Positions 14,823 to 28,525 of a stretch of 58,728 nt of DNA are shown here, one piece after another. Numbering within the stretch: the stretch's first letter is position 1; the number at the start of each line of letters is the position of its first letter. The stretch lies in assembly GCA_050015075.1 (NCBI GenBank), contig JBEKCB010000034.1:1-58728 (forward strand). The letters are read 5' to 3'. Below the pieces are notes generated by a model. That model ran no database searches. It was not told the DNA's origin and worked only from the letters and a program-made list of their open reading frames with translations. The position numbers and the translations under genes were made by a program. The stretch comes from Candidatus Brocadiia bacterium. Its GTDB lineage: Bacteria; Planctomycetota; Brocadiia; CAIUPP01.

Positions 14823-14959
14823 AGGCCGAAGACACCACGCGGCGAATGCAATAGGCTTTGTTCCTCCGCCGGGAAACGGGTGAAATGGAAGCGAGTTGAA
14901 TCCATCGCTGGTTGATAATGCCAGCGGATTTGACAACCGCCGAGAGGCGGACCGGTAAG

Positions 14960-16177
14960 ATGGGAAATCGCCGGCAAAATATTTTCGCGGGCGACAGTCA
15001 GCAGCAGTGGCTGCCGTGCAAAGGATGGGCGGTGCGCGCGGTGACGGCCTGCTTCGCCTTGCTCACCGCGGTTTCAGCGATCGGCGCAGAATCAAGGGAA
15101 GCGACTGAACAGGAGAAGAAGATGACCATCGGCGCTTACTATTTCGACGGGTGGGCGGGCCATAACCGATCGGCTGAGGATGCCGGGCAACCGTGGGCTC
15201 GAAACGCTCCTGCGCTGCTGACCCGGAGGATGATCGAGGAGTTCCCGCAGCGGGAGCCGCTCTGGGGCTGGCGGGATGATTCGCCGGCGATTATGGAGCG
15301 GCAAATAGATCTCGCGGCGGGCCACGGCCTCGACTTCTTTGCGTTCTGCTGGTACTGGCACGATAACGGGGGGCCGATCAACGAGAAGGCGATCGAGGAA
15401 GACCCCAAGCACAGCGGGCTGGAACTGTTCCTGAAGGCGAGAAACAGCCGGCGCATGAAGTTCTGCCTGCTGGTGGCCAATCACGATGGATTCGAGATCA
15501 AAGGGACGGAGCATTGGAAGCAGGCCGCCGACTTCTGGATGCGCTATCTGAAGCACCCGCAGTGCGTCACGGTCGGCGGGAAGCCGCTGGTGATCATTTT
15601 CAATCCCGGCGGCGGAGATAAGGACGGCTTCGCGTACCTGCAGGAAGCGGCGCGAAAAGCGGGGCTGCCGGGCGTGGCGATCGCCGGTTGCGGGGGCGGG
15701 ACGCCGGAGATGGGTTACACCCACAGGACGCATTACAACGTGATACCGGGGTACACGGCCGGATCGGAGGAGCACAAGTACGCGGAACTGGCGGCCGCGA
15801 ACCGAGAGGCGTGGGCCGGCAGCCGCGGGCAGCCGTACATGCCGGAGATCATAGTCGGGTGGGACAAGCGGCCGTGGGAGAATCCGACGGGCCTGCACCA
15901 GAATGCCGGATGGTACTACCCGGACCGCACGCCGGAGCAGTTCGCGATCCACCTGCGCGATGCGATGGCGTGGATGGACGAACACCCCGAAGAGACCACC
16001 GCCGAGCGCATCGCTCTGATCTATGCGTGGAACGAATTAGGCGAAGGCGGGTACATGGTCCCGACCAAGGGCGACCCCGACGGCAAGTACCTGAAGGCGC
16101 TTCGGTCGGTGGTGATGCCGGCCGGTCAACCGGGTCAGCCGGGCGCTCCAGCGGATGCGGACAAGGCGCACCCTTGA
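14960..16177 (+). CDS. GH99-like/WbsX-family glycoside hydrolase, probably secreted (start uncertain)
   Basis: AYYFDGW, QIDLAAGHGLDFFAFCWYW, GWDKRPW and YAWNELGEG. Confidence 0.7.
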   Translation: MGNRRQNIFAGDSQQQWLPCKGWAVRAVTACFALLTAVSAIGAESREATEQEKKMTIGAYYFDGWAGHNRSAEDAGQPWARNAPALLTRRMIEEFPQREPLWGWRDDSPAIMERQIDLAAGHGLDFFAFCWYWHDNGGPINEKAIEEDPKHSGLELFLKARNSRRMKFCLLVANHDGFEIKGTEHWKQAADFWMRYLKHPQCVTVGGKPLVIIFNPGGGDKDGFAYLQEAARKAGLPGVAIAGCGGGTPEMGYTHRTHYNVIPGYTAGSEEHKYAELAAANREAWAGSRGQPYMPEIIVGWDKRPWENPTGLHQNAGWYYPDRTPEQFAIHLRDAMAWMDEHPEETTAERIALIYAWNELGEGGYMVPTKGDPDGKYLKALRSVVMPAGQPGQPGAPADADKAHP

Positions 16178-16225
16178 GCTTTGACCGCCGATCACCGGCG
16201 GATATCACTTTTCGAGGAGGAAAAA

Positions 16226-18526
16226 ATGTCCTTCCAGTCTGCCGCAAGCGCGCTGCTGACGGCCTTCCTGCTGTTCACCGTGGGTGCCAATGCGCCGGCC
16301 GCTGAGGGCCCGCCGCCAGAGGAGCATTGGCAGCTCTGGGACGACAACGGCGCCGAGGGCTGGTTTGCGCCGGAGTATAAGTACGATGACGGCATGACGC
16401 CCGCGCCATGGGAAGATGCGTTCACATTTTTCCGGCAGCCGGCCGGCAGCCTGGGATGGATCGTCGCCAACGGCGACAACCTCGAGTTCGAGAAGGCGCC
16501 GGGCCGGCCCATCCACTTCAAGGGGCTCACGACGCACGCATTCGCCTGCCCGCCCGAAAAGGCTGCGGCCTATGCGAACATCCTGCGCAAGTTCGGCTTC
16601 AACGAGGTGCGGTTCCACTCCCTCTGCGAGGGCCTCCTCAAGAAGGAGGGAAGTCTGTCGGCGTCGAGCCCGAGCGGAACGACTTCAACGTACACCCTGC
16701 CTGAGCTCGACCCGGACCGCATGCGGACGTTCGACAACTACTTCGCCGAATTGAAGAAGGCCGGCATCTACGTTCGCCTGTCCGGCAATTTTGCCACGTA
16801 CTGGTCCCCGTCCACCGGCGTGCATACTCCGGAGAAAATTCCGCGGCTCAACAACATCGCGTACTTCTTCGACGATAAGCACCAGGAGCTTTATCTGAAA
16901 AGCGTCCGCCTGTTCCTGGACCACGTCAATCCCTATACCGGCTTGCGCTACGCCGACGATCCCGCCTGCAACATGTACATGGTGGTCAACGAGACCAGCC
17001 TCTACTGGAGCGACGCCCGGCTTCTGCCGGAGTACTACCGCAGCGAGCTGCAGGAGAAATACAACGCCTGGCTGACGGAGAAATACGGGGACGACGCCGC
17101 CTTGCTGAAGGCCTGGCAGGCGCCCGGCCAGGGGACGGCCCTCGGCGGCGACGAATCGCTCTTCGACGGCAGCGTCGCTCTGATGGGACCCAGGGGCGTG
17201 GCCGGCGCGGAGGAGAAAGATCACAAGCGCGGAGCCGACGAGATGCGGTTCTACTACAAGCTGGAGACCGACTGGTTCGGAAAGGTGCGCAGCGCCATCC
17301 GGGAAACCGGCAGCCGGATGCTGGTGCAGAGCACCTCCTGGAACGGCCCCGCCGCGTTGCAGGAAATGCAGACCGCTTCGGAGGCGGCGCTGGATTTCAC
17401 CGGCAAGCACGTCTACTGGCTCGGCGGCGGGGCGGGGCTGAGGCGCGGAGAGTTCCGAATGGCCAACGAGCCGGTCGAGCGCCACCCCAACGACCATCTC
17501 CTGCTCCTCTGCTACCAGCACGTCGCCGACAAGCCCTTCAACATCACCGAGTGGAACTTCTGCTACCCGAACGATTACACCACGGAGGCGGCGGTATTCA
17601 TGGCCGCCTACGGCGCGCTTCAGAACGTCTCGGCCAATCATCGCTTCGACGCCGACGAGCCGGAATTCCTCCCCATGAAGGACAATTCCTTCAGCATGTT
17701 CGAATCGCCCGCCGGCATGGCCGTTGAGCCGCTGGCTTATTTCCTGTACGTGCGCGGCGACCTGCGTCCTGCCCCGATCATCCGCCAGGATGCGCTGACC
17801 GAGGCCGAACTGTTCGACCCCTTCCGCGGCCGGCAGGAGCGCGGGCGGCGCGGGGGCGGCTACTTCCCGTACCTCGGCGGCCAGCCCGGGCCCTGGGACT
17901 CCATGCTGGTGGGCGGCGTGCGGCTTTCCTTCGACCCGGCAAAGTATCCTGCCATCTGGGATCAGAAAACCTATGACGCCGGGCACGACGCGCAGGCCGG
18001 CACGATCACGAGCATGACCGGCGAACTCGTCTGGAACACGCGCGGCGAGTTCGTGCAGGCGCAGACGCCCAGGACCCGTTGCCTGATGGGCGCCCTCCAG
18101 GGCAAACACGAGAACGGCCCGCTCACGATGGACCTCAGCCGAGCCTACGGCGTGGCCGGAATGGCCAGTCTCGACGATCGTGCGCTCGAAACCTCGCAGC
18201 GCATCCTCCTCACTCTGGCCGGCCGCGACCGCAACACCGGCCAGACGATCGAGGCGGTGATGCCCGGCGACCAGCCCGCGTCCGGACGCAGGGGCAGATA
18301 CAGGCTGGAAGTGCTCGGCGGTCCTCCGATTATCGAGGAGCCGGTCACGGTGGACTTCTCTCTGAAGACGGAGCACAACGGGACCTGGACGGTCTTGCCG
18401 GTGGACGTCTGCGGACGGCCCCTTGCGGACCGGCAGCGGACATTGACCGCCGCCGACGGCGTGCTCACGGGTAAAATCAGCACGCGCGACGATAAAGCGC
18501 TGAATTACATCTTGACGGTCCAATGA
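16226..18526 (+). CDS. Secreted putative glycoside hydrolase (clan GH-A-like TIM barrel)
   Basis: Signal peptide; GFNEVRFH, LKKAGIYV, HVNPYTGLRYADDP, VVNE (acid/base-like) and ITEWN (nucleophile-like); GGAGG RBS. Confidence 0.6.
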   Translation: MSFQSAASALLTAFLLFTVGANAPAAEGPPPEEHWQLWDDNGAEGWFAPEYKYDDGMTPAPWEDAFTFFRQPAGSLGWIVANGDNLEFEKAPGRPIHFKGLTTHAFACPPEKAAAYANILRKFGFNEVRFHSLCEGLLKKEGSLSASSPSGTTSTYTLPELDPDRMRTFDNYFAELKKAGIYVRLSGNFATYWSPSTGVHTPEKIPRLNNIAYFFDDKHQELYLKSVRLFLDHVNPYTGLRYADDPACNMYMVVNETSLYWSDARLLPEYYRSELQEKYNAWLTEKYGDDAALLKAWQAPGQGTALGGDESLFDGSVALMGPRGVAGAEEKDHKRGADEMRFYYKLETDWFGKVRSAIRETGSRMLVQSTSWNGPAALQEMQTASEAALDFTGKHVYWLGGGAGLRRGEFRMANEPVERHPNDHLLLLCYQHVADKPFNITEWNFCYPNDYTTEAAVFMAAYGALQNVSANHRFDADEPEFLPMKDNSFSMFESPAGMAVEPLAYFLYVRGDLRPAPIIRQDALTEAELFDPFRGRQERGRRGGGYFPYLGGQPGPWDSMLVGGVRLSFDPAKYPAIWDQKTYDAGHDAQAGTITSMTGELVWNTRGEFVQAQTPRTRCLMGALQGKHENGPLTMDLSRAYGVAGMASLDDRALETSQRILLTLAGRDRNTGQTIEAVMPGDQPASGRRGRYRLEVLGGPPIIEEPVTVDFSLKTEHNGTWTVLPVDVCGRPLADRQRTLTAADGVLTGKISTRDDKALNYILTVQ

Positions 18527-18725: not shown

Positions 18726-20081
18726 ATGCACTGGCAGCACATCCTCTGGCCCAGGCTGACCAGCCGACCGGTTCGGGCGCGCATGCGCCATTTTCGGATC
18801 CCGCAAGCCGACCGGCATTCGCGCGTGCATCTCCGCGTCGAGGAGGACGGCAGCGGCCTGATGCTGGTGGACGCGACGGTGGCGGTGCGGCTGAACCACT
18901 CGGCGATGGAGATCGCCCACGCGATTCTCGAGGGAAAATCGCTCGAGCAGACGACGCGCGCGCTGCGCAAGCAGTTCCGCGACGCGACAGCGGAACAGGT
19001 CGCGCGCGACTACGAGAAGCTCAGGCAGATTCTCTTCCCGGCCGGGCACGAGGCGCAGTGCCCGTGGCAGGATCTGGCGTCGAAAGAGAACGAGCCGTTC
19101 TCGATTAAAGTCTCCGCGCCGTACCGCGCCGACCTCGCCCTGCTCTACCGCTGCCAGAACCACTGTCCGCACTGCTATGTCGAACGGTCGCGCGAGATGC
19201 CATCGCTCTCGCGGGAGCAGTGGAACTCCGTCCTCGAAAAGCTCTGGCATGCGGGCATCCCGCACATCTGCTTCACCGGCGGCGAGGCGACGCTCTGCGA
19301 CTTCCTGGTCGAGCTTGTGGAGAAAGCGCGGGACCTCGGGCAGGTCAGCGGACTCCTGACGAACGGCAGGCGCCTCTCCGAGCGCGACTACGCCCGCCGT
19401 CTCGTCGCCGCCGGACTCGACCACGTTCAGATCACCCTCGAGTCGCACGTCGAGGACGTTCACAATCGAATGGTCGGCGCGCCCGGCTACGGCGAGACGC
19501 TGGCGGGGCTGAAGAATGCGCTCTCCGAGGGCATCTACACCGTGACGAACACCACGCTGACGCGGCTGAACGCGCCGCAGATCGAGCAGACGGTGGAGTT
19601 TCTGCACGGGCTCGGCGTGAAGGCGTTCGCCTGCAACTCGCTCATCATCTCCGGCGGCGGAAAGAACAGCGACGTGGGACTGACGATGCCGGAACTGGCG
19701 CGCGTGCTGCCGCTGGTGAACCGGAAGGCCCGCGCGCTGGGCATGCGATTCATCTGGTATACGCCGACGCCGTACTGCCGCCTGAATCCTGCGCAGCTCG
19801 GCCTGGGCTTCAAACGCTGCACCGCCGCCGAGTACAACATCTGCGTCGAGCCGAACGGCGACGTGCTGCCGTGCCAAAGCTGTTACCGCGTCGCCGGAAA
19901 CATGCTCGCCGACCCGTGGAAGAAAATCTGGTCAGGCCCGGTCTTCAAGGAAATCCGCGACCGACTGGCCGTGCCGGACGACTGCCGCACTTGCCCGGAC
20001 TTCGCGATCTGCGGCAGCGGGTGCCCCTTGAGCCGCGAACATGACATGATCCACTGCACGGACCGCGTTTCGGAAGGATAA
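18726..20081 (+). CDS. Radical SAM/SPASM protein with an N-terminal PqqD-like (RRE) domain
   Basis: CQNHCPHC, FTGGE and LTNG; SPASM CTAAEYNICVEPNGDVLPC...CRTCPDFAICGSGC; N-terminal segment VRLNHSAMEIAHAILEGKSLEQ..ATAEQVARDY resembles PqqD. Confidence 0.85.
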   Translation: MHWQHILWPRLTSRPVRARMRHFRIPQADRHSRVHLRVEEDGSGLMLVDATVAVRLNHSAMEIAHAILEGKSLEQTTRALRKQFRDATAEQVARDYEKLRQILFPAGHEAQCPWQDLASKENEPFSIKVSAPYRADLALLYRCQNHCPHCYVERSREMPSLSREQWNSVLEKLWHAGIPHICFTGGEATLCDFLVELVEKARDLGQVSGLLTNGRRLSERDYARRLVAAGLDHVQITLESHVEDVHNRMVGAPGYGETLAGLKNALSEGIYTVTNTTLTRLNAPQIEQTVEFLHGLGVKAFACNSLIISGGGKNSDVGLTMPELARVLPLVNRKARALGMRFIWYTPTPYCRLNPAQLGLGFKRCTAAEYNICVEPNGDVLPCQSCYRVAGNMLADPWKKIWSGPVFKEIRDRLAVPDDCRTCPDFAICGSGCPLSREHDMIHCTDRVSEG

Positions 20082-20084
20082 CGC

Positions 20085-21845
20085 ATGGGCCGGAATCAAC
20101 GGAGGCCATGGACGATCCTGGCGGCGCTCGCCTGCGCCGGTTTCCTCGCCGCGGTCGCGCCGGCCCAGGAGTACCGGTTCAGCGTGCCCGAGGCACAGGT
20201 CGTGCTGACGGTGCAGCCGGATGCTTCGATCCTCGTTGACTATCGCCTCAGGTTCCAGAACGACCCGGCCGCGCACCCGATTGACATCGTGGATGTCGGC
20301 ATGCCGACGAAGGACTACGAGGTCCTGACCGCTTCCATTGACGGCAAGCCGCTGAATTCATGGAAACCCTCGACCGCCATCGAGACCGGACCGGAAATCC
20401 ACCTGGAGGGACATGCCATCCCGCCCGGCGGCGCCGGCACGTTCGAATGCCGCGCGCGCGTCACCGGCATGGTCTACGAGGACCGCGGCGACAAGGGCCG
20501 CGCCTCCCTGCGCTTTACGCCGACCTGGTTCGGCGATCGATATGTCACGGGCGAGACGGACCTGCTCCTGATCGTCAAGTTTCCGCCGGGCGTCCACCCC
20601 GACGAGGTCGTGTGGCAGACGAACATGCCGCAGTTCTTCAAGAAGGGCGCGCTGGACCCGGACAACGTGGCCTTCGTGGCCTGGAAGGAGCATTACCGGT
20701 TCACCGGGCCGAAGATGTTCGGCTGCTCGTTCCCACGGTCGGTCATGGCGCGCGTTGAGTCGAGCGGCCTATGGACGATGTTCCGGTTCTGGTGGGAAGG
20801 ATCGGCGGAGGCGCAGGAGATCGGCGGGGCGATATTCCTCGTTCTGTTCAGCATCTTTTTTCTGCTCGTGACGCGCGGCACGGGGATCACGGTGCTGATC
20901 CTCTGCATCGGCGCGTGCATCATTGTGATGGTTGAGTCGCCGACGTTGCATCTGTGCCTGTGGCTGTTGATCCCGATCATGGGCGCGGCGTGGTATTTTG
21001 CCCTGCACCGCGCGAAGCCGCATTACCTGCCGGCGGTTGCGCAGGTGGAAGGCGGCGGCGTGTGCCGCGGCTTGACGCCCGCGGAGGCCGGCGTCCTGCT
21101 CGAACTGCCTCCGCAGCGGGTGCTCGGCATGATCCTCACGAGCCTGTTCAGCCGAGGCATCATCCGCACGGTCAAGCCGGAGCCGCTGGAGGTCGAACTG
21201 CGCGGCACGCGGCCGGAGCCCAACATCGTCCAGTTGCAGGGACAGCGCACCATGCTGGAACCCTACGAGGTCGGGTTCCTGGATGTCCTGTGCGCGCCAC
21301 CGCCGGAAGTGGCGGAGAAGGATTTCAGCGCGCCGTTGAAAAACATGGTCGGCTCGGTCAGCTATAAGATCAGCGGCTTCGACCGCGAGGCGACGCGCGC
21401 GTATTATCGCGCCGTCACGGCGCGCGCCTGGGAGCAGATCAGCGCCGAGACGGACCCGACGAAGAAGGATGACCTGGCGGCCCAGCGGCTGAGCTGGCTC
21501 TCCCTGTCGGACGACTACGAGCGGCGAATGGAGGCGGAGCGAGCGCGCGGCTGGTCCTATTGGCCGAGCTGGTATTATGCGCCCGGCTACGGCCACAGCG
21601 AGAACTGGTACCGAGACTTGAACCGGTCGGTGGCCCCGGCGGCGGCGCGTTCGGCGCAGAGTATCGTGCCGCCGGTCAAAGGAGTGGACCTTTCCGGTGT
21701 AGACCACTTCACGCTGAACAGCCTGAACCAGATCGCGGAGTCGGCCGAAAGCGGCGGAGGCGGCGGCGGCGGTTTCGGCGGCGGCTGTGCCTGTGCCTGC
21801 GCCGGCTGCGCCTGCGCGTGCGCGTGCGCCGGCGGAGGGCGCTAG
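20085..21845 (+). CDS. Membrane protein (signal peptide, exported domain, 3 TM; DUF2207-like architecture) with a Gly/Cys-Ala C-terminal tail
   Basis: Hydrophobic segments; ends SGGGGGGGFGGGCACACAGCACACACAGGGR; starts 3 nt after the radical SAM stop. Confidence 0.75.
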   Translation: MGRNQRRPWTILAALACAGFLAAVAPAQEYRFSVPEAQVVLTVQPDASILVDYRLRFQNDPAAHPIDIVDVGMPTKDYEVLTASIDGKPLNSWKPSTAIETGPEIHLEGHAIPPGGAGTFECRARVTGMVYEDRGDKGRASLRFTPTWFGDRYVTGETDLLLIVKFPPGVHPDEVVWQTNMPQFFKKGALDPDNVAFVAWKEHYRFTGPKMFGCSFPRSVMARVESSGLWTMFRFWWEGSAEAQEIGGAIFLVLFSIFFLLVTRGTGITVLILCIGACIIVMVESPTLHLCLWLLIPIMGAAWYFALHRAKPHYLPAVAQVEGGGVCRGLTPAEAGVLLELPPQRVLGMILTSLFSRGIIRTVKPEPLEVELRGTRPEPNIVQLQGQRTMLEPYEVGFLDVLCAPPPEVAEKDFSAPLKNMVGSVSYKISGFDREATRAYYRAVTARAWEQISAETDPTKKDDLAAQRLSWLSLSDDYERRMEAERARGWSYWPSWYYAPGYGHSENWYRDLNRSVAPAAARSAQSIVPPVKGVDLSGVDHFTLNSLNQIAESAESGGGGGGGFGGGCACACAGCACACACAGGGR

Positions 21846-22008
21846 TGTAGTGTCCGGGAAATAACATACATAAGCCTAGCCCGCGTCATGTTGAGCGCAG
21901 CGAAGCATCTCACACCATAAGCCGTTGCCGACGCGCAGCGTATGAGATTCCTCGCTCCGCTCGGAATGACCAGACTTTATGCAACTCATTTCCAGGACAG
22001 CACACTAG
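21842..22008. mobile_element. MITE-like element, copy 1 (imperfect terminal inverted repeats, CTAG at both ends, internal palindrome)
   Basis: Left end TAGTGTAGTGTCCGGGAAAT matches the reverse complement of the right end TAGTGTGCTGTCCTGGAAAT at 17/20. Internal arms 21885-21911 and 21944-21970 pair at 21/27. Confidence 0.65.
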
Positions 22009-22039
22009 GTCGAGCGAAAGCGCCGAATCGTCCTCGGCG

Positions 22040-22786
22040 GTGGAGATCCGAGCGGTGGGGAGCGAAGCGAGCGCGCCGAAGGACTCTCTTCAGACGCTGG
22101 ACGAGCAGTACCGGCGCCAGGCCGCGTGGTTCTATGGAGTGCGGTCGAACCTGCTGAGGCGGGTGGCGATCGAGGGGAAACGGCGCGTGCTCGATCTCGG
22201 CTGCGGCACCGGCGCGGTCATCGAGGAACTGGCGCGCCGCTGCAAGGGGCAGGTGGTCGGACTGGACATCGAGGCCGCGCCGCTCAATCTCCATCCCGGG
22301 CGATTCGCCGCCTCAGATCGGGTGATCGCTGCCGGCGGGGCGCTTCCGTTTCCGGACGCGAGCTTCGACCTGGTGTTCACTCAGATGCTCTTCCTCTGGG
22401 CGGCCGAGCCCGGCGCGCTCGTCCGTGAAATCGCGCGCGTCCTTGAGCCCGGCTGCGAACTCATCGCGGCGGCTGAGCCGGATTTCGGCGGGCGGATCGA
22501 GTATCCCGAAGCGAGCCGGCTGGGACCGAGGATGAGCGCCGCGCTCCGCGCGCTCGGCGCGGACCCCGAAATCGCGCGGAAGCTGCCGGAGATTCTCTCG
22601 CGCGAGGGGTTTCACGTTGACATGGGCGTGCACCCTTCGCTCTTCCAACCGGATGAACTATCGGCGGCCTCGGAAGAGGAGCGGAAGTTCCTCGCCTCGG
22701 TCGAGGACCGGGCCGTCGAGAAGCGGCCTGCGGCGACTTTTCTTTTTATGCCCTATTTCTGGTTTCTCGCGCGCAGGCCGCACTAA
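22040..22786 (+). CDS. Class I SAM-dependent methyltransferase (start uncertain)
   Basis: VLDLGCGTG, LPFPDASFDLV and EIARVLEPG. Confidence 0.85.
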   Translation: MEIRAVGSEASAPKDSLQTLDEQYRRQAAWFYGVRSNLLRRVAIEGKRRVLDLGCGTGAVIEELARRCKGQVVGLDIEAAPLNLHPGRFAASDRVIAAGGALPFPDASFDLVFTQMLFLWAAEPGALVREIARVLEPGCELIAAAEPDFGGRIEYPEASRLGPRMSAALRALGADPEIARKLPEILSREGFHVDMGVHPSLFQPDELSAASEEERKFLASVEDRAVEKRPAATFLFMPYFWFLARRPH

Positions 22787-22831
22787 CGCGCTGGCTCTCA
22801 GCCGTTCTTTTTATGGTGAGAATCCGACTTC

Positions 22832-23524
22832 ATGAAACGATTTCTCGTGACGCTGCCCCGCAACCTCGTGGGCTGCTTTAAAGGCCGGATGATCGTGTGG
22901 CACGTCATCGCCATCGTTCTCACTTTCATCCTCGTCACGTCCGGCTTGGACTGGCGCTATTTTCTGGCCACCCGCGATCCGACGCTTCATTCCTGGATGT
23001 TTCGCGCCGTCCACATCGGCATGCTGCTGCCGCTCGCCTTGCCGCTGGCTCTTTTTGCGCTCGGCGCCATCGCCGGAAATGCCCGGGCCATCGTGATCGG
23101 CTGGGCCGTCGGTCAGGCCGCGCTCCTCGGCTTGCTGATCGCGGCCGCGTACAAGGCGGTTACGGGGCGCGCCCATCCTTCGCACGGCGTCGGCGCGGAC
23201 ATCAGTCATGTCTTCCACTTCGGCTTGCTGCGCGGCGGGGTTTTCTGGGGCTGGCCGTCGTCGCATACCACGGTCGCCTTCGCGATGGCGGTGACGGTGT
23301 TCATGCTCTGTCCGAAACGGCGGTGGCTGGGCTTGGGGGCGATCCTCTACGCTTTCTACGTCGGCGTTGGAGTCTCCATGACCATCCATTGGTTCTCGGA
23401 TTTCGTGGCCGGAGCGATTATCGGCTCGGTCATCGGAACCGTTGTCGGGAGAAGTTTTTCGGCCGACGGCGCCGCAGATCGCCCGTGTACTTCTCGCGGA
23501 GACGAGCGACCTGTCGCTCCTTGA
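22832..23524 (+). CDS. PAP2-family membrane phosphatase
   Basis: KAVTGRAHP, WPSSHT and HWFSDFVAG with TM helices. Confidence 0.8.
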   Translation: MKRFLVTLPRNLVGCFKGRMIVWHVIAIVLTFILVTSGLDWRYFLATRDPTLHSWMFRAVHIGMLLPLALPLALFALGAIAGNARAIVIGWAVGQAALLGLLIAAAYKAVTGRAHPSHGVGADISHVFHFGLLRGGVFWGWPSSHTTVAFAMAVTVFMLCPKRRWLGLGAILYAFYVGVGVSMTIHWFSDFVAGAIIGSVIGTVVGRSFSADGAADRPCTSRGDERPVAP

Positions 23525-23670: not shown

Positions 23671-26244
23671 ATGAGAAAAATTCTGGCGGTACTGTCGGTA
23701 TGCGCCCTGAGTGCTTGCCAATCCGGCCCGGCGCAATCGCCTGCGCCGGAACCGGTCGTCAAAGCGCAGGACACCCGGGGAACGCCGGACCAACGTGCGG
23801 ACCGGTTGCTGAAACAGTTGACGCTGGAGGAGAAGATCCAACTGGTCAGCGGAGACGGTTTTATGACGCATCCGATTGACCGATTGGGAATCGGCGCCTT
23901 CTACATGTCCGATGGCCCGCAGGGCGTTCGGAACGGGCCCGGCGATCCGACGCCGCGCGCCTGCGCGTTTCCGGCGGGGGCCGCGCTGGCGGCGACGTGG
24001 GACGTTGACCTGGCCGCGGCTTATGGCAGGGCGATCGGCCTGGAAGGGCGCGCGCGGGGAACTCATTTCCAGCTCGGGCCCGGGCTTAATATCTGCCGCG
24101 TGCCCGTCAACGGCCGCAACTTCGAGTACTTCGGCGAGGACCCTTACCTGGCGTCCGTCATCGCGGCCAACTGGGTGAAAGCATGCGCGGCGCAAGGCGT
24201 CGTCCCCACGATCAAGCATTTCGCCGCCAACAACCAGGAGAACAACCGATCCTCCGTGGACGCGCAGGTGGACGAACGGACGCTGCATGAGATTTATCTG
24301 CCCGCGTTCAGGAAAGCGGCGCTCGAGGGCGGCAACGTCGCGGTGATGTGCTCCTATAACCGCCTCAACGACCATTACGCCAGCAATAACGATTGGCTGT
24401 TGAACCAGACGCTCAAGAAGCTGTGGGGTTTCAAGGGCTTGGTGATGTCCGACTGGGGCGCGTCGCACTCGGTGACGGACTTGGCCATGGGGCTCGATCT
24501 GGAAATGCCGCGAGGCGATAACCTTTCGGCAAAGAACCTTGAAGCCGCACTGGCCGCCGGCACGATCAAGCCATCGGACCTGGACGGAGCCGTGCATCGC
24601 ATCCTGCGCACCGCCGCCGCCGCAGACTGGCTCGATGCCGGCTGGGAGCAGAAGAATTCCGCTCTGCCGATGGATTCCCCGGGATCGGCCAAGGTGGCGT
24701 TGGACGTTGCGCAAGCATCCATTGTGCTGCTGAAGAACGACCGTGACGCGTTGCCGCTGGACCGGAGCCAGGTCAAAACCATCGTCGTCCTGGGCCCCAA
24801 TTCCTCATCTGCGCCCGGCGCCGTTCCGATCAATATCGGCGGCGGCGGCAGCGGCCAGGTGACGCCGTTCGACGCGCGCATACCCGAGGCCGATTATCTC
24901 CAGGGGATCATTCGAGCCGCAGGAAGCAACGTGAATGTGATCCACCTGCCGATGCCGGAGGACGCCGATCAAGCCGTGTTCGCGACGTTCGCCAACGCGC
25001 GCACGGCTCCGGATGGCCCGCCCGGACTGACGCTCACCGTCGAGGTGACGGGCGAGGGCCCCTCGGTGACGATCCCTCCATCGGTCCAGACCTCGGTCAA
25101 TGTGACCTGGGAGCGCGGACAATTGCCGTTCGACGTTCCGGCCGGGCGCGACGCCACGTTCACCTGGAGCGGCGTGCTGGTTTCAGCCGAAGAAAGCGAT
25201 TGGGTGGTCCGCGTGGCAGGCAGGCCGGTCATTACAGTTGATGGACGGATCATCGAGAACGCCAATGGCCAGATGGTTCATCTGCAGGGGAACCGGCCGA
25301 CGCCCGTCCAGATCCAGTATCGCGCCCTGGCCAATCCGCGAGGCCGCGGCGGACGAGGCGGCGGCGGATTGATGATCAAGGCTGGTCTCCAGCCGCCGGC
25401 GTCGGCGATACCGGACCTGTCCGCCGTGAAAACCGCTGACGCAGCGATTGTCTGCGTTGGGTTCAACCGCAACGCAGAGTCCGAAGGCCGGGACCGCCCG
25501 TTCGAGTTGCCCGGACTCCAGCAATACCTGCTGTCCCGAGTCGCTGCCTTGAATCCGCGCACTATCGTCGTCAACAACAGCGGCGCGGCGGTGGGTATGA
25601 CCGGCTGGCGCGACGGCGTCGCTGCGATTCTCCAGGCGTGGTACCTCGGCCAGGAAGGCGGCGTCGCGATCGGAAACGTGTTGTTCGGCGACGTCAATCC
25701 GTCCGGCCGGCTCTGCTCGACGTTCGACAAGACGTTCGAGGACAACCCCGCCTTCGCCTATTATCCCGGAGCGACGCCGCCCGGCGGCGGTTACCCGGTC
25801 GAACCCTACACCGAGGGCATCTTCTACGGTTATCGCGGGTACGATAAGGCGAACAAAGATCCGTTGTTCCCATTCGGATACGGCCTGAGTTACACGACCT
25901 TCCAGCTTTCCAATCTGAAGATTCAGAAAGCCGGCTCGGATGTGAAAGTTTCCCTGGATGTCGGGAACACCGGCCGGCGCGCCGGAGCCGAAGTGGTGCA
26001 GATCTACGTGGGGCAGGAGAATCCCTCCGTGCCGCGCCCGTTGCGGGAACTCAAGGGGTTCCGCAAGGTGATGCTCGATCCGGATCAGACCAGGCGCGTC
26101 GAAATCACTCTGCCACGGAGCGCGTTCGCCTACTGGAGCCCGGACAAAAAGGATTGGACCGTGGACTCCGGCGCGAGTTTCACCATCGAAGCCGGCGTAT
26201 CCGAGCGCGAGATTGAATTGAAGGACACCATCAAAGTTAACTAG
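23671..26244 (+). CDS. GH3 beta-glucosidase, lipoprotein, with a PA14-like insert and C-terminal Fn3-like domain
   Basis: Lipobox LSAC; SDGPQGVR, GRNFEYFGEDP, KHFAAN, MSDW, PFGYGLSYT and RELKGF. Confidence 0.9.
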   Translation: MRKILAVLSVCALSACQSGPAQSPAPEPVVKAQDTRGTPDQRADRLLKQLTLEEKIQLVSGDGFMTHPIDRLGIGAFYMSDGPQGVRNGPGDPTPRACAFPAGAALAATWDVDLAAAYGRAIGLEGRARGTHFQLGPGLNICRVPVNGRNFEYFGEDPYLASVIAANWVKACAAQGVVPTIKHFAANNQENNRSSVDAQVDERTLHEIYLPAFRKAALEGGNVAVMCSYNRLNDHYASNNDWLLNQTLKKLWGFKGLVMSDWGASHSVTDLAMGLDLEMPRGDNLSAKNLEAALAAGTIKPSDLDGAVHRILRTAAAADWLDAGWEQKNSALPMDSPGSAKVALDVAQASIVLLKNDRDALPLDRSQVKTIVVLGPNSSSAPGAVPINIGGGGSGQVTPFDARIPEADYLQGIIRAAGSNVNVIHLPMPEDADQAVFATFANARTAPDGPPGLTLTVEVTGEGPSVTIPPSVQTSVNVTWERGQLPFDVPAGRDATFTWSGVLVSAEESDWVVRVAGRPVITVDGRIIENANGQMVHLQGNRPTPVQIQYRALANPRGRGGRGGGGLMIKAGLQPPASAIPDLSAVKTADAAIVCVGFNRNAESEGRDRPFELPGLQQYLLSRVAALNPRTIVVNNSGAAVGMTGWRDGVAAILQAWYLGQEGGVAIGNVLFGDVNPSGRLCSTFDKTFEDNPAFAYYPGATPPGGGYPVEPYTEGIFYGYRGYDKANKDPLFPFGYGLSYTTFQLSNLKIQKAGSDVKVSLDVGNTGRRAGAEVVQIYVGQENPSVPRPLRELKGFRKVMLDPDQTRRVEITLPRSAFAYWSPDKKDWTVDSGASFTIEAGVSEREIELKDTIKVN

Positions 26245-26296
26245 AGGCCGTTTCACAACCTGCACGCCAAAAGGGCCTTTTCAAAGGGTTGACAGG

Positions 26297-28525
26297 ATGA
26301 TGAGGCAACTTCTCATTGCCGCTCTTCTGGCTGCGGCAGCCGCGGCGTATGCGGGACAACCGGATGCGAAGGTGGTGATCGGCGACGCCCGGTTTACGGT
26401 CATCGCGCCGGAGTGCATCCGGATCGAATATGCTAAGGACGGCAAGTTCGTGGATGACAAGTCCATGTTCGCCGTCGAACGCGACGCCGCCTGGAATGAT
26501 TTCAAGTTGATCCATGAAGGCGACGATGTGGTCATTGACACGGGAAGAATCCGGCTGCGATACCATTCTGACAACAAGCCGTTCAACCAGGAGAATCTGC
26601 GCGCGCAGATCGCGCGGGGCAAAGATTGGGTAGAGTGGCGGCCCGGCGTGAAGAACCGGGAAAACCTGGGCGGGACGATCCGCACGCTGGACGGCGTGAA
26701 GGGCCCGGTGGACCTGGGCGACGGCGTGTTGTCGCGCGACGGCTGGTACCTGCTGGATGATTCGCAAACCCCTCTGCTGACCAGCGATTGGGTCCAGGAG
26801 CGCCCGGAAAACGGAAGCACGGACTGGTATCTTTTCGGCTATGGGACCGATTACAAGGCGGCATTGAGGGCGCTGACGCGCATCGGCGGCGCGGTGCCGC
26901 TCCCGCGAAAGTACGTCCTCGGCGCATGGTACTCCCGGTATTGGCCGTACACGTCGCAGGATTTTCGGGAAATTGTAGCAGGGTACCGCCAGCACGATTT
27001 CCCGCTCGATGTCATCGTCATGGATATGGACTGGCACCTCACGCGCCTTCCCGGGTCGGACCGGAAGGGCCAGATCTGGACCGGCTACACATGGGACCGC
27101 GGACTCATCCCGGACCCGGAAGGGCTTCTCCAGTGGTTCCATCAGCAGGGGCTCCATGTGACGCTGAACGACCATCCGGCCGACGGCGTACAGCCTCACG
27201 AACAGATGTACGGGGCTTTCATGAAAGCCATGGGAGCGGACCCTTCCACGAAGGAGACGTTGCCGTTCGATGCCGGCAACAAAGAGTACCTCGACACGTT
27301 CTTTCACTACACGCACGACCCATTGGAAAAGGAGGGCGTGGATTTCTGGTGGCTGGACTGGCAGCAATATGCCAACACGCGCAGTCTGCCGCATTTGACC
27401 AACCTGGCCTGGTTGAATGAGTACTATTATCGTCACACAAGCCGGAACGACTTGCGCGGTCAAAGTTTCAGCCGCTGGGCCGGGTGGGGCGACCATCGCC
27501 ATCCGATCCATTTCTCCGGCGACGCGGACACCGGTTGGAATATGCTCACGTTCGAGGTGCCGTTCACCTCGACCGCCGGAAATGTCGGGTGCTTCTTCTG
27601 GTCGCACGACATCGGCGGGCACATGGGCGGGCGCAACGAGGAAAGCTATGTGCGGTGGGTCCAGTTCGGCGCCACCTCAGCCGCCCTGCGCTCGCATTCC
27701 ACTCGCAATGCGGACATGGATCGCCGTCCGTGGACGTACAGCCGGCAGGCGGAAGACTCGATGCGCGTCAGCTTTCACCTGCGCTCCGAATTGTTCCCCT
27801 ATATTTATTCCAGCGCATGGGAAAGCTGCACGGAGTCCGTGCCGCTCAACCGGCCGATGTACATCGAGTACCCCGGCAGGGAAGAAGCCTACCGCAATCC
27901 GCAGGAGTACTTTTTCGGCGACAACTTGCTGGTGGCGCCGATCACGTCACCCGGGCAGGGGCCGGAGAAAGTCGCGCAGCAGACCGTCTGGTTCCCGCCC
28001 GGCGAGTGGTACGATTGGTTCACCGGCCGGCATTTCTCAGGGGAACGGACCGAAACGGTTTCGGCGGACATCAACCGGTTCCCGTTGTTTGCCCGAGGAG
28101 GTGTGCCGGTCCCCTTGCAGCCGTATACGCAGCGAATGACCACAGCTCCTCTCGCCAATCTGGTGGTCCGCTGCTACCCGGGAACCGATGGACAGAGCGC
28201 CAGCACGACACTGTACGAAGACGATGGAGTGACGGGCAGATATTTACGGGGAGAGTCGTCACAGACTGTCTTGACGTATCGGCGCTCGAACAACAAGGTG
28301 GCCGTGATCATATCGCCGTCGAAGGACAGTTTTGCGGGGCAGGTCGAGAAGCGATCCTACCTGGTGGAACTGCGCGAGACCGCCAAACCGCGCGATGTCG
28401 CGGTCAGCCACGGGAAATCTGAGACGGACTATGTAACCGACTACGATGAAAGCACGCATACGATTCATGTGAGAATAGCCCCTCGGCCGGTTCATGATGA
28501 ATTGACGATTTCGGTTAACTTCTGA
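26297..28525 (+). CDS. GH31 glycoside hydrolase, secreted
   Basis: Signal peptide; FPLDVIVMDMDWH, DFWWLDWQ, HFSGD, WSHDIGG and LYEDDG. Confidence 0.9.
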   Translation: MMRQLLIAALLAAAAAAYAGQPDAKVVIGDARFTVIAPECIRIEYAKDGKFVDDKSMFAVERDAAWNDFKLIHEGDDVVIDTGRIRLRYHSDNKPFNQENLRAQIARGKDWVEWRPGVKNRENLGGTIRTLDGVKGPVDLGDGVLSRDGWYLLDDSQTPLLTSDWVQERPENGSTDWYLFGYGTDYKAALRALTRIGGAVPLPRKYVLGAWYSRYWPYTSQDFREIVAGYRQHDFPLDVIVMDMDWHLTRLPGSDRKGQIWTGYTWDRGLIPDPEGLLQWFHQQGLHVTLNDHPADGVQPHEQMYGAFMKAMGADPSTKETLPFDAGNKEYLDTFFHYTHDPLEKEGVDFWWLDWQQYANTRSLPHLTNLAWLNEYYYRHTSRNDLRGQSFSRWAGWGDHRHPIHFSGDADTGWNMLTFEVPFTSTAGNVGCFFWSHDIGGHMGGRNEESYVRWVQFGATSAALRSHSTRNADMDRRPWTYSRQAEDSMRVSFHLRSELFPYIYSSAWESCTESVPLNRPMYIEYPGREEAYRNPQEYFFGDNLLVAPITSPGQGPEKVAQQTVWFPPGEWYDWFTGRHFSGERTETVSADINRFPLFARGGVPVPLQPYTQRMTTAPLANLVVRCYPGTDGQSASTTLYEDDGVTGRYLRGESSQTVLTYRRSNNKVAVIISPSKDSFAGQVEKRSYLVELRETAKPRDVAVSHGKSETDYVTDYDESTHTIHVRIAPRPVHDELTISVNF

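What the first reader, a model, noticed from the sequence alone, without database searches (positions are those of the whole stretch)
18726..22786. PqqD-like radical SAM/SPASM enzyme beside a membrane protein ending in CACACAGCACACACAGGGR, plus a methyltransferase
Seen: the radical SAM stop is 3 nt from the next gene, and no short precursor peptide is evident. That gene's tail (21786-21845) has 7 alternating Cys after a poly-Gly linker and uses mixed codons (TGT/TGC, GCC/GCG), which points to protein-level selection. A signal peptide plus 3 TM would put the tail in the cytoplasm. Known: RRE-bearing SPASM enzymes install thioether crosslinks on Cys-rich peptides (sactipeptides, ranthipeptides). 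Inference: a RiPP-like core fused to a 586-aa membrane protein is modified in place or released, or the tail is a metal or Fe-S binding device matured by the enzyme.
Basis: partly seen in the sequence, partly recalled or inferred. Interest (0 to 1): 0.75.

Follow-up and report, generated by a model that had tools for sequence, protein, structure and literature searches.

The report
Radical SAM enzyme with Cys-Ala-tailed membrane protein
A radical SAM enzyme and a membrane protein ending in an almost unchanging Cys-Ala tail travel together across many bacterial phyla, which suggests an undescribed system that chemically modifies a protein tail anchored at the membrane.

Summary
On the + strand, 18726-20081 encodes a radical SAM/SPASM enzyme with an N-terminal PqqD-like peptide-recognition domain. 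Three bases later, 20085-21845 encodes a 586-aa membrane protein ending in GGG-CACACAGCACACACAGGGR. A SAM methyltransferase follows at 22040-22786.

A search with the tail cut off the query still found the tail on 115 of the 150 best homologues. The other 35 are mostly fragments. Seventeen residues stay fixed at 31-40 % overall identity, while third codon positions vary.

The enzyme and the membrane protein co-occur in both directions:
- 37 of 38 well-flanked loci seeded on the membrane protein hold the enzyme.
- 30 of 32 well-flanked loci seeded on the enzyme hold the tail.
- The same 16 of 201 evenly drawn genomes of the Anaerolineae MAG G002's phylum hold both genes.

A sister system in the window's own phylum pairs a 33-37 % identical enzyme with a similar membrane protein ending in (ACHS)n.

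No Pfam or NCBIfam model reaches its cutoff for the membrane protein, and no paper searched holds the motif. My best reading is that the enzyme modifies the tail in place, probably with thioether crosslinks. That chemistry is inferred, not shown. I rate it a new variant of a known kind, with high interest.

The parts
18726..20081 (+). Radical SAM/SPASM enzyme (451 aa) with an N-terminal PqqD-like recognition (RRE) domain. By residue: RRE about 19-103, radical SAM core about 134-344, SPASM about 351-445.
   Evidence: Pfam finds Radical_SAM and SPASM above their cutoffs and PqqD at 21.6 bits against a 23.4 cutoff. Cys C143, C147, C150, C351, C365, C383, C420, C423, C429 are invariant, and C433 is kept in at least 90 %, across 32 orthologues. 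The AF2 model has pLDDT 82.3, and Foldseek aligns 376-452 columns to SkfB, SuiB and CteB.
19152..19175 (+). CX3CX2C motif (C143-C150, CQNHCPHC) that would bind the radical SAM [4Fe-4S] cluster.
   Evidence: Read from the translation. The three Cys are invariant in alignment A2.
20085..21845 (+). DUF2207-like membrane protein (586 aa) that carries the tail.
   Evidence: ORF. No Pfam or NCBIfam model reaches its cutoff: Pfam gives only a chance-level MADF hit at 19.2 bits against a 22 cutoff, and NCBIfam gives nothing. The tail-less search found 627 representative homologues at E <= 1e-3. The AF2 model has pLDDT 84.9. The nearest named clusters in the ESM Atlas are DUF2207 and DUF2207_C.
20085..20165 (+). 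Signal-peptide-like N-terminus (residues 1-27, ending AVAPAQE).
   Evidence: Hydropathy peak at residues 8-29 and a helix at 6-21 in the model. Cleavage is inferred.
20166..20735 (+). Beta-sandwich domain, read as extracytoplasmic (residues about 28-217).
   Evidence: Strands span 32-217 in the model. Foldseek matches the N-terminal beta domain of M1 aminopeptidases and LTA4H at E about 4e-8, with TM-scores of 0.15-0.30.
20805..21011 (+). Three transmembrane helices (residues about 241-309).
   Evidence: Helices at 241-263, 268-284/292 and 295-309. Hydropathy windows above the threshold start at residues 242-290, a hydrophobic block of about 242-308.
21015..21749 (+). Helical/beta-meander domain, read as cytoplasmic (residues 311-555), with the conserved motif VEGGG(I/V)(K/C)RGLT.
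   Evidence: Alignment A1 and the model. Structural leads point to DUF2207_C and GPP34-like clusters at TM 0.49-0.59. The sister-system proteins match residues about 322-462.
21687..21725 (+).
   Evidence: D540 is invariant and L536 nearly so in alignment A1. The more distant tail variant carries a VTNPxP motif here instead. Binding was not tested.
21750..21785 (+). Gly-rich linker SGGGGGGGFGGG (residues 556-567).
   Evidence: Its length and sequence vary among homologues. It is disordered in the model.
21786..21845 (+). Tail CACACAGCACACACAGGGR plus stop (residues 568-586). The last 17 residues are invariant.
22040..22786 (+). Class I SAM-dependent methyltransferase (248 aa), a frequent third member of the cassette.
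   Evidence: Pfam Methyltransf_11 at 70.5 bits. The best NCBIfam model is the DVU_1556 family at 71.6 bits, below its 155 cutoff. A homologue lies in 30 of 38 and in 26 of 32 well-flanked loci.
22790..22804 (+). Terminator-like hairpin with a T-run just after the methyltransferase stop; a possible operon end.
   Evidence: The number of such sites in the region is not above the shuffled expectation, so only the position is suggestive.

Best explanation
The window holds a conserved cassette of three genes: a radical SAM/SPASM maturase with a peptide-recognition domain, a DUF2207-like membrane protein, and a SAM methyltransferase.

I propose the following mechanism. The membrane protein has a beta-sandwich domain outside the cell, three TM helices and a helical domain inside. 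A flexible poly-Gly linker then presents the invariant tail (CA)nG(CA)mGGGR to the cytoplasm. The maturase docks on the protein's C-terminal region through its recognition domain and modifies the tail while it stays attached. The most likely chemistry is radical formation of intramolecular thioether bridges between Cys sulfur and the C-alpha or C-beta of Ala or Gly, as in sacti- and ranthipeptide synthases. The methyltransferase would then add methyl groups. The product would be a rigid, membrane-tethered, sulfur-rich module, perhaps for handling metals or redox chemistry.

What is shown: the anatomy, the invariance of the tail, and the tight co-inheritance of the enzyme and the membrane protein. 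What is inferred: that the tail is the substrate (about 0.65), that the chemistry is thioether formation (about 0.35), and that the product stays attached.
For: 1. Enzyme type.
- The CX3CX2C motif and the full SPASM Cys set are conserved in 32 orthologues (nine invariant, C433 in at least 90 %).
- The N-terminus folds as beta strands followed by three helices.
- Foldseek's top eight hits are SkfB, SuiB and CteB, aligned over 376-452 columns.
- The best sequence hits to solved structures are SkfB (7e-14, starting at residue 51) and PqqE.
- A degenerate paralogue in other phyla hits PqqD above its cutoff, 28.9 bits against 23.4.

2. Tail under extreme protein-level constraint.
- 118 of 120 listed homologues carry it.
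- 115 of the 150 best hits in the tail-less search carry it: 41 window-type, 65 of the variant CACACA[G/S]CACACAGGGR, and 9 near-variants. The 35 without it have a median length of 348 aa, against 576 aa for those with it.
- Synonymous sites vary freely.

3. Co-occurrence.
- Seeded on the tail and membrane protein: the enzyme is present in 68 of 80 loci, and in 37 of 38 loci with at least 5 kb on both sides. The median gap is 100 nt.
- Five genomes whose locus lacked the enzyme were searched whole. Four have a 393-474-bit orthologue elsewhere, and one has only fragments.
- Seeded on the enzyme alone: a CA tail is present in 62 of 80 metagenome loci, and in 30 of 32 with at least 3 kb on both sides.
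- In 201 evenly drawn genomes of the phylum of G002 (its locus L038 is titled Anaerolineae), the membrane protein is in 16. An enzyme orthologue at E <= 1e-195 is in exactly those 16, and the two genes lie next to each other on one contig in 15 of them.
- In 201 genomes of the window's own phylum, all 6 with the membrane protein also have the enzyme.

4. Sister system. Seven genomes of the window's phylum have a 32-37 % identical enzyme. In the six of these whose region I read (L092-L094, L096-L098) it lies directly downstream of a similar membrane protein ending in (ACHS)n...GG(A/S)x. In the seventh (G062) no such protein stood in the stretch fetched. Enzyme clade and tail type thus change together.

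5. Precedent. SPASM radical SAM enzymes are known to install thioethers on whole proteins. I read the abstract and sections 8 and 14 of PMC13692751, on CrpC and CrpA; that paper also names QHNDH as a precedent.

6. No recurring protease or exporter. Among the ORF families found in at least 8 of the 80 loci, no peptidase turned up. The only ABC ATPase sits in 14 loci.
Against: - No data show any modification.
- The Pfam PqqD hit on the window's own enzyme is just below cutoff.
- Every NCBIfam equivalog for known maturases is far below cutoff: PqqE 103 bits against 381, StsB 87 against 625, SkfB 56 against 300. The chemistry therefore cannot be transferred by homology.
- The tail has no Asp, Glu, Thr, Asn or aromatic residue of the kind that serves as acceptor in characterised sacti- and ranthipeptides (this list is from my own knowledge).
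- CxCxC patterns are also classic metal-thiolate ligands.
- Two well-flanked enzyme loci (L108, L138) and the membrane-protein loci L012 and L038 lack the partner nearby.
- Related genomes are not independent, so the perfect phyletic match overstates the statistical weight.
- The cytoplasmic location of the tail rests on a predicted topology. Positive charges lie on both sides of the TM block.
Confidence: 0.55

Rival explanations
1. The tail is a metal-thiolate or Fe-S binding device, like a metallothionein or a cluster carrier. The radical SAM enzyme either is served by it or loads it, without crosslinking the tail covalently.
For: The tail has seven Cys in a CxCxCxxCxCxCxC pattern. The sister tail pairs Cys with His, (ACHS)n, both good metal ligands. 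In the CrpA precedent the authors suspect metal binding as the biological role (PMC13692751, sections 8 and 14). The tail is disordered in the AF2 model, as unloaded metal-binding peptides usually are.
Against: Metal-binding Cys peptides normally tolerate changes at the spacer residues. Here every Ala and Gly is as fixed as the Cys. The enzyme also carries a peptide-recognition domain typical of maturases that modify covalently. The two readings are not exclusive: a crosslinked tail could still bind metal.
Confidence: 0.2
2. The membrane protein acts as a giant leader. After modification the tail is cut off at the Gly-rich linker and released as a small Cys/Ala-rich peptide natural product.
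For: A poly-Gly stretch lies directly before the core, reminiscent of double-glycine leader cleavage sites (the comparison is from my own knowledge). The layout of leader-like segment, linker and core resembles a RiPP precursor.
Against: No peptidase turned up among the ORF families found in at least 8 of 80 loci, and the only ABC ATPase sits in 14 loci with no C39 peptidase domain found. A 560-aa membrane-embedded leader used once per peptide would be costly. The rest of the protein is itself conserved, which suggests it has its own function.
Confidence: 0.1
3. The enzyme acts on something other than the tail: an unannotated short peptide, the small zinc-ribbon membrane protein found in most clusters, or a lipid or small molecule. 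The membrane protein is then only a partner or scaffold.
For: A conserved protein of about 115-130 aa, with 2 TM helices and a zinc ribbon, ending ...YQ(I/L)EE(A)PKW, lies in 66 of the 80 genome loci and 42 of the 80 metagenome loci. My ORF clustering ignored ORFs under 70 aa.
Against: The zinc-ribbon protein was not found in the window's genome, which is 93.6 % complete. It is also missing from the contig of the closest relative, L101. The enzyme and the tail protein persist there regardless. The tail is the most conserved element of the whole cassette, and it changes type together with the enzyme clade.
Confidence: 0.1

Closest known systems
Sactipeptide and ranthipeptide maturases (SkfB, CteB/SCIFF, PapB, StsB)
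   Same: The enzyme has the same three-part layout: recognition domain, radical SAM core and SPASM/Twitch domain. These are its best sequence and fold matches. The presumed substrate is Cys-rich and encoded next door.
   Different: All NCBIfam models for these families score far below cutoff. The presumed substrate is the tail of a 586-aa membrane protein rather than a short peptide. No protease or exporter recurs. The tail offers only Ala and Gly as possible acceptors.
Protein-substrate SPASM thioether systems: CrpC/CrpA of Methanococcus voltae and QhpD/QhpC
   Same: A SPASM radical SAM enzyme with a recognition domain modifies Cys-rich repeats at the C-terminal end of a whole protein encoded beside it, and the product stays a protein (PMC13692751: abstract, sections 8 and 14).
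   Different: CrpA is a 28.8-kDa protein with a 17-residue motif repeated ten times, each containing C-X-X-Q/D. CrpC belongs to TIGR04463, which is not among the 25 best NCBIfam hits shown of 49. In the window the substrate is membrane-anchored, the motif is an invariant (CA)n tail, and a methyltransferase is part of the cassette. Neither the tail motif nor DUF2207 occurs in the two supplementary files held for that paper.
DUF2207 / DUF2207_C membrane proteins
   Same: The overall architecture matches: a signal peptide, an outer beta-sandwich, TM helices and an inner helical domain. The nearest named Atlas clusters score 0.93-0.96 for the whole protein. One structure row meets the Atlas's own bar for DUF2207_C. 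TM-scores to DUF2207_C clusters are 0.56-0.59.
   Different: Pfam gives no DUF2207 hit at E <= 0.01 for the window protein or for 10 distant homologues. As far as I know, no link between radical SAM enzymes and DUF2207 is described.
ACGX-repeat peptide system (TIGR04340 radical SAM) and other orphan repeat-peptide SPASM systems
   Same: A SPASM enzyme is paired with a short-period, Cys-containing repeat (family names are from NCBIfam). The sister system's (ACHS)n tail has the same period of four.
   Different: The window enzyme scores 51.8 bits against a 400 cutoff and the sister enzyme 93.4. Those systems use small free peptides (from my own knowledge). None of them has been characterised either.
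Metallothionein-like CxC motifs
   Same: Alternating Cys give a high local thiol density.
   Different: No family match was found. The spacer residues are invariant, and the tail is genetically tied to a radical SAM maturase.

Membership tests
Radical SAM superfamily with SPASM domain | A CX3CX2C cluster motif and the Pfam Radical_SAM model above its cutoff | tested here: met
   CQNHCPHC at C143-C150 is invariant in 32 orthologues. PF04055 scores 80.4 bits against a 29.5 cutoff.
Radical SAM superfamily with SPASM domain | The C-terminal seven-Cys SPASM motif, including CX2CX5CX3C | tested here: met
   C351, C365, C383, C420, C423 and C429 are invariant, and C433 is kept in at least 90 % of the 32 orthologues. 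PF13186 scores 39.6 bits against a 21.5 cutoff.
RRE (PqqD-like) bearing peptide maturases | An N-terminal PqqD-like winged-helix domain | tested here: inconclusive
   Pfam PqqD scores 21.6 bits, below its 23.4 cutoff. Against that, the model shows strands 19-56 followed by three helices, SkfB, SuiB and CteB align from the N-terminus, and the degenerate paralogue scores 28.9 bits. I read the domain as present; binding was not tested.
Sactipeptide / ranthipeptide (RiPP) systems | A short precursor with leader and core that is released by a protease or exporter | tested here: not met
   The candidate substrate is the C-terminus of a 586-aa membrane protein. No recurring peptidase or exporter was found.
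Sactipeptide / ranthipeptide (RiPP) systems | Enzyme membership in a curated maturase family (StsB, SkfB, PapB, SCIFF and others) | tested here: not met
   All score far below cutoff, for example StsB 87 bits against 625 and SkfB 55.9 against 300.
Sactipeptide / ranthipeptide (RiPP) systems | Thioether (S-C-alpha or S-C-beta/gamma) crosslinks in the product | not testable with these tools
   This needs mass spectrometry of co-expressed or native protein.
PqqE/PQQ or mycofactocin cofactor pathways | An equivalog-level match, and a PqqA or MftA precursor nearby | tested here: not met
   PqqE scores 103 bits against 381, and MftC 72 against 265. No such short precursor was seen among the recurring ORF families; ORFs under 70 aa were not examined.
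Protein-substrate SPASM thioether systems (CrpC/CrpA type) | A Cys-repeat protein encoded beside a SPASM enzyme that carries a recognition domain | tested here: met
Protein-substrate SPASM thioether systems (CrpC/CrpA type) | The enzyme belongs to TIGR04463, and the substrate has C-X-X-Q/D repeats | tested here: not met
   TIGR04463 is not among the best 25 of 49 NCBIfam hits. The tail contains no Gln or Asp.
DUF2207 (PF09972 / PF20990) | A Pfam model match | tested here: not met
   No hit at E <= 0.01 for the window protein or 10 homologues. Only Atlas feature and structure leads exist.
ACGX-repeat system | The TIGR04340 enzyme above its cutoff, and an ACGX repeat peptide | tested here: not met
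   51.8 bits against a 400 cutoff. The repeat here is CA, not ACGX.

The most novel reading that the evidence does not exclude
The cassette builds a new kind of membrane-tethered, protein-derived module. The (CA)nG(CA)m tail folds back at its single Gly, so that every cross-strand pair is one Cys and one Ala. The radical SAM enzyme then zips it into a ladder of up to six thioether rungs. If the bonds go to Ala C-beta, they would be chemically lanthionines made by a radical route. The methyltransferase caps the product. Together with the (ACHS)n sister system, this would define a superfamily of DUF2207-like membrane proteins that carry programmable, enzyme-matured Cys-repeat tails, used at the inner face of the membrane for metal, sulfur or redox handling.
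Probability: 0.25. Interest if true: 0.85.

Novelty: new variant of a known kind. Interest (0 to 1): 0.72.

Why it matters
Radical SAM/SPASM maturases are mostly known for making small secreted peptides. Examples that act on whole proteins are few: QhpD, anSME and, described only in 2026, CrpC.

This cassette differs in several ways. The substrate candidate is membrane-anchored. Its tail is invariant across at least eight named lineages, among them Chloroflexota/Anaerolineae, Planctomycetota, Armatimonadota, Elusimicrobiota, Hydrogenedentota, Deltaproteobacteria/Polyangiaceae and candidate phyla. The tail-less search found 627 representative proteins for the family. No Pfam or NCBIfam model reaches its cutoff for the membrane protein, and none of the papers I searched mentions the motif.

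It also gives the large DUF2207-like superfamily of unknown function its first concrete biochemical handle. The experiment is simple and decisive: co-express two or three genes and weigh a 19-residue tail. Bellilinea caldifistulae is a cultured carrier, so native protein is within reach.

Tried and rejected
- Complex prediction, enzyme (alignment A2) with residues 500-586 of the membrane protein (alignment A1): score 0.02, verdict 'no answer'. This is no evidence either way.
- First related-loci scan with the single protein: 25 pattern matches, no relative confirmed. I repeated it with alignment A1.
- Zinc-ribbon protein and PAS-like protein in the window's own genome: no hit at E <= 0.01 among six-frame ORFs of at least 50 aa.
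- Degenerate enzyme paralogue in the window's genome: the only strong hit to its profile is the active enzyme itself.
- PAP2 gene downstream (22832-23524): no homologue in any of the 80 genome loci, so I do not count it as part of the cassette.
- Apparent 1118-aa fusion in L097: this is an open-frame artefact. The (ACHS)n protein lies in another frame.
- RNA evidence: one metatranscriptome run holds a 266-nt contig identical to 22403-22668, inside the methyltransferase. Nothing from that run lies on the enzyme or the membrane protein apart from low-complexity matches on the Gly linker. That is too little to speak of expression.
- Literature searches: the tail strings gave 0 papers. 'Cys-Ala repeat', 'alternating cysteine' and 'cysteine-rich C-terminal tail', each combined with radical SAM, gave 0 papers. 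ACGX gave nothing relevant. For DUF2207 with radical SAM, none of the 25 top-ranked papers holds DUF2207. A six-term RiPP/transmembrane query gave 0 papers. The SPASM review PMC10114670 has no passage on membrane or Cys-rich protein substrates.
- One search was a term-syntax error, corrected.
- Lanthionine by dehydration, and thiazole or oxazole by a YcaO enzyme: I set these aside because the tail has no Ser or Thr, and no such enzyme family recurs in the loci.

Full report
WHAT IS THERE

Three genes lie on the + strand.
- 18726-20081 encodes a 451-aa radical SAM enzyme.
- 20085-21845, three bases further on, encodes a 586-aa protein.
- 22040-22786 encodes a 248-aa methyltransferase, after a 194-nt gap.

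The 586-aa protein ends ...DLSGVDHFTLNSLNQIAESAE-SGGGGGGGFGGG-CACACAGCACACACAGGGR.

Pfam places the first protein in Radical_SAM (80.4 bits) and SPASM (39.6 bits). It gives a PqqD hit of 21.6 bits, just below the 23.4 cutoff. The third protein is a class I methyltransferase (Methyltransf_11, 70.5 bits). For the middle protein, no Pfam or NCBIfam model reaches its cutoff: Pfam gives only a chance-level MADF hit of 19.2 bits against a cutoff of 22, and NCBIfam gives nothing. A terminator-like hairpin sits directly after the methyltransferase stop. The PAP2 gene that follows has no counterpart in related loci.

THE ENZYME

An alignment of 32 orthologues (43-58 % identity) keeps these residues invariant:
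- C143, C147 and C150, which form the CX3CX2C motif;
- C351, C365, C383, C420, C423 and C429 of the SPASM set, whose last Cys, C433, is kept in at least 90 % of rows;
- C112, in the linker before the radical SAM core.

The AF2 model (pLDDT 82.3) shows four N-terminal strands and three helices ahead of the radical SAM barrel. Foldseek's best matches are SkfB, SuiB and CteB, followed by anSME and PqqE. Alignments to SuiB and CteB run over 429-452 columns, so the N-terminal domain is included. By sequence, the closest solved structures are SkfB (7e-14, starting at residue 51) and PqqE.

Every curated NCBIfam maturase model scores far below its cutoff. The enzyme is therefore a peptide or protein maturase by architecture, but it belongs to no characterised family.

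THE MEMBRANE PROTEIN

The AF2 model (pLDDT 84.9) shows, in order:
- an N-terminal signal-like helix;
- a beta-sandwich at residues 32-217;
- three TM helices at 241-309;
- a helical and beta-meander domain at 332-555;
- a disordered end at 557-586.

Hydropathy agrees with this layout. Basic residues flank the TM block on both sides, so 'tail inside' remains an inference. The link to a cytoplasmic Fe-S enzyme supports it.

The beta-sandwich resembles the N-terminal domain of M1 aminopeptidases, with low TM-scores. The ESM Atlas puts the protein nearest to unnamed Chloroflexota and Bathyarchaeota clusters, and after those to DUF2207 and DUF2207_C clusters. These are leads only, since the Pfam DUF2207 models do not match.

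THE TAIL IS REAL AND UNDER PROTEIN-LEVEL SELECTION

A word-seeded search listed 120 homologues, and 118 end in CACAGCACACACAGGGR. The other 2 lack the tail; one is labelled partial. That search can be biased by the tail's own words. I therefore ran phmmer with residues 1-555 only, against 1.84 billion cluster representatives. It found 627 hits at E <= 1e-3.

Of the best 150 hits:
- 41 carry the window-type tail;
- 65 carry the variant CACACA[G/S]CACACAGGGR;
- 9 carry near-variants, such as GGGA at the end, one substituted residue, or a short CACACAGGGR;
- 35 carry none. These have a median length of 348 aa against 576 aa, and include obvious truncations and one frameshifted tail.

The general form is (CA)n-G-(CA)m-GGGR. 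Among the 80 genome loci the counts are 46, 12, 9, 8 and 7 for the five main forms. The 17 window-type tails are 17 different DNA strings with a mean third-position identity of 0.375. The rest of the protein is only 31-40 % identical between phyla. The window's genome holds only one such tail.

CO-OCCURRENCE

Seeded on the membrane protein and tail (genome contigs, 80 loci):
- An enzyme orthologue of at least 150 bits lies in 68 of 80 loci.
- It lies in 37 of the 38 loci with at least 5 kb on both sides, at a median distance of 100 nt.
- The methyltransferase lies in 30 of those 38.

Five genomes whose locus lacked the enzyme were searched whole. Four have an orthologue of 393-474 bits on another contig, and one has only fragments.

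Seeded on the enzyme alone (metagenome contigs, 80 loci):
- A CA tail lies in 62 of 80 loci.
- It lies in 30 of the 32 loci with at least 3 kb on both sides. The exceptions are L108 and L138.

Seeded on neither gene:
- I searched 201 evenly drawn genomes of the phylum of G002. Its locus L038 is titled Anaerolineae.
- The membrane protein is in 16 genomes. An enzyme orthologue at E <= 1e-195 is in exactly the same 16.
- The two genes are adjacent in 15 of those 16.
- The one further enzyme hit is a weak paralogue at 1e-45.

In 201 genomes of the window's own phylum the membrane protein is rare, in 6 genomes including the window's. All 6 also have the enzyme.

Related genomes are not independent, so these figures describe the pattern and are not a statistical test.

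OTHER MEMBERS OF THE CASSETTE

ORF clustering over the 80 loci adds these:
- A protein of about 115-130 aa with 2 TM helices and a zinc ribbon, ending ...YQ(I/L)EE(A)PKW. It lies in 66 of the 80 genome loci and 42 of the 80 metagenome loci.
- A degenerate enzyme paralogue that keeps the PqqD-like domain (28.9 bits) but has lost CX3CX2C. It lies in 48 of the 71 loci that have any enzyme-family ORF.
- A PAS-like protein of about 115 aa, in 15 loci.

None of the three was found in the window's genome. The cassettes in the Elusimicrobiota locus (L006) and the Hydrogenedentota loci (L010, L069) are similar to the window's: they lack the paralogue but keep the zinc-ribbon gene. The core is therefore the enzyme, the tail protein and usually the methyltransferase.

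No peptidase family recurs. The remaining recurrent families look like lineage synteny: an ABC ATPase in 14 loci, methylmalonyl-CoA mutase, LigA, a Na/H exchanger, and C_GCAxxG_C_C in 8 loci.

SISTER SYSTEM

Seven genomes of the window's phylum have an enzyme that is 32-37 % identical. In the six whose region I read (L092-L094, L096-L098), it lies directly after a membrane protein of the same build. That protein matches residues about 322-462 of the window protein. Its tail is (ACHS)n, for example ...[36 protein letters not shown]. In the seventh genome (G062) no such protein stood in the stretch fetched. Tail type and enzyme clade change together, and both tail types end in GG-small-x. This is what an enzyme-substrate pair would show, although co-inheritance alone could also produce it.

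HOW IT MOST LIKELY WORKS

The recognition domain and the precedents point to modification of the tail while it remains on the protein. The precedents are SPASM enzymes that act on whole proteins: CrpC installs ranthionine crosslinks on the Cys-repeat protein CrpA, and that paper also cites QHNDH (PMC13692751; I read the abstract and sections 8 and 14).

The tail has no Ser or Thr, so dehydration chemistry is excluded. The available partners for Cys are Ala, Gly and other Cys.

A hairpin that turns at the single Gly would place a Cys opposite an Ala at every rung. This follows from the sequence alone and is speculation. It would allow a ladder of thioethers.

My estimates:
- the enzyme and the membrane protein are functional partners: about 0.9;
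- the tail is the substrate: about 0.65;
- thioethers are formed: about 0.35.

The rivals are listed with their tests: a metal or Fe-S site, release as a peptide, and a different substrate. The structure-based docking attempt gave no verdict.

NOVELTY

I found no Pfam (2025 copy) or NCBIfam (release 20.0) model that reaches its cutoff for the membrane protein or the zinc-ribbon protein. No paper in the searchable library contains the motif or the association. Two supplementary files of the CrpC paper were searched without a hit. Subscription-only papers and further supplements were not visible to me.

The kind of system, a SPASM maturase plus a Cys-rich substrate, is known. Several features are new: the membrane-anchored substrate, the invariant (CA)n tail, the methyltransferase, the degenerate paralogue and the breadth of distribution. 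I therefore rate it a new variant of a known kind.

CONTEXT

The window's DNA recurs in peat metagenome runs. Carbohydrate-active genes flank the cassette in the window. The closest relative's contig (L101, enzyme 78 % identical) shares only the enzyme region with the window. Together with the patchy distribution of 6 in 201 genomes, this points to lateral movement of the cassette.

Noticed in passing
L096 2586-4358; L092 8282-10009 (-); L093 2-1543; L094 2523-4154 (-); L097 3999-5711; L098 3-719: A sister system in the window's own phylum. These membrane proteins have the same build but end in an (ACHS)n repeat followed by ...VSGGAH/SH/SR/SF. Each is followed by a 32-37 % identical radical SAM/SPASM enzyme. 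In L093, L094 and L097 an unassigned membrane protein follows (about 395 aa in L094). No NCBIfam or Pfam model matches the tail proteins.
   Followed up: partly
e.g. L078 10999-12264; 48 of the 71 loci with an enzyme-family ORF: A degenerate paralogue of the enzyme keeps the PqqD-like domain (28.9 bits) but has lost the CX3CX2C Cys and, in most cases, the SPASM Cys. It may act as a non-catalytic recognition partner. It was not found in the window's genome.
   Followed up: partly
e.g. L078 7585-7959; L010 146-493: A small protein (about 115-130 aa) with 2 TM helices and a C-terminal zinc ribbon, ending in the conserved ...YQ(I/L)EE(A)PKW. It lies in 66 of the 80 genome loci and 42 of the 80 metagenome loci, and has no Pfam or NCBIfam match. 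It was not found in the window's genome.
   Followed up: partly
window 21900-22113: The gap between the membrane protein and the methyltransferase holds a repeat. Its summed contig depth in two peat DNA runs jumps from about 8 to about 5000, so the sequence is shared with many other organisms or loci. The spurious ORF 21942-22157 lies on it.
   Followed up: no
L066 14328-14774 (8 loci in all): A C_GCAxxG_C_C 'putative redox-active protein' recurs in the loci of some Chloroflexota-type MAGs. The cassette's methyltransferase has the DVU_1556 family as its best NCBIfam model, below cutoff. From my own knowledge, that family neighbours a C_GCAxxG_C_C protein in Desulfovibrio.
   Followed up: no
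L099 6852-8447 and L100 5344-6996 (genome G032): One genome of the window's phylum carries two tail-bearing paralogues. Only one of them lies next to the enzyme.
   Followed up: no
window 14202-18526 and 23671-28525: The cassette sits among carbohydrate-active genes. Upstream lie a GDSL lipase/esterase, a WbsX-like protein and a protein with a weak GH42-like match. Two long ORFs downstream were not scanned. The closest relative's contig (L101) does not share these flanks.
   Followed up: partly
window 22403-22668: A 266-nt contig from one metatranscriptomic run matches the methyltransferase gene exactly. This is too little to claim expression.
   Followed up: partly
e.g. L057 3871-4212 (15 loci): A small PAS-like protein (about 115 aa; its Pfam PAS_4 hit is below cutoff) follows the enzyme in some Anaerolineae loci.
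   Followed up: no
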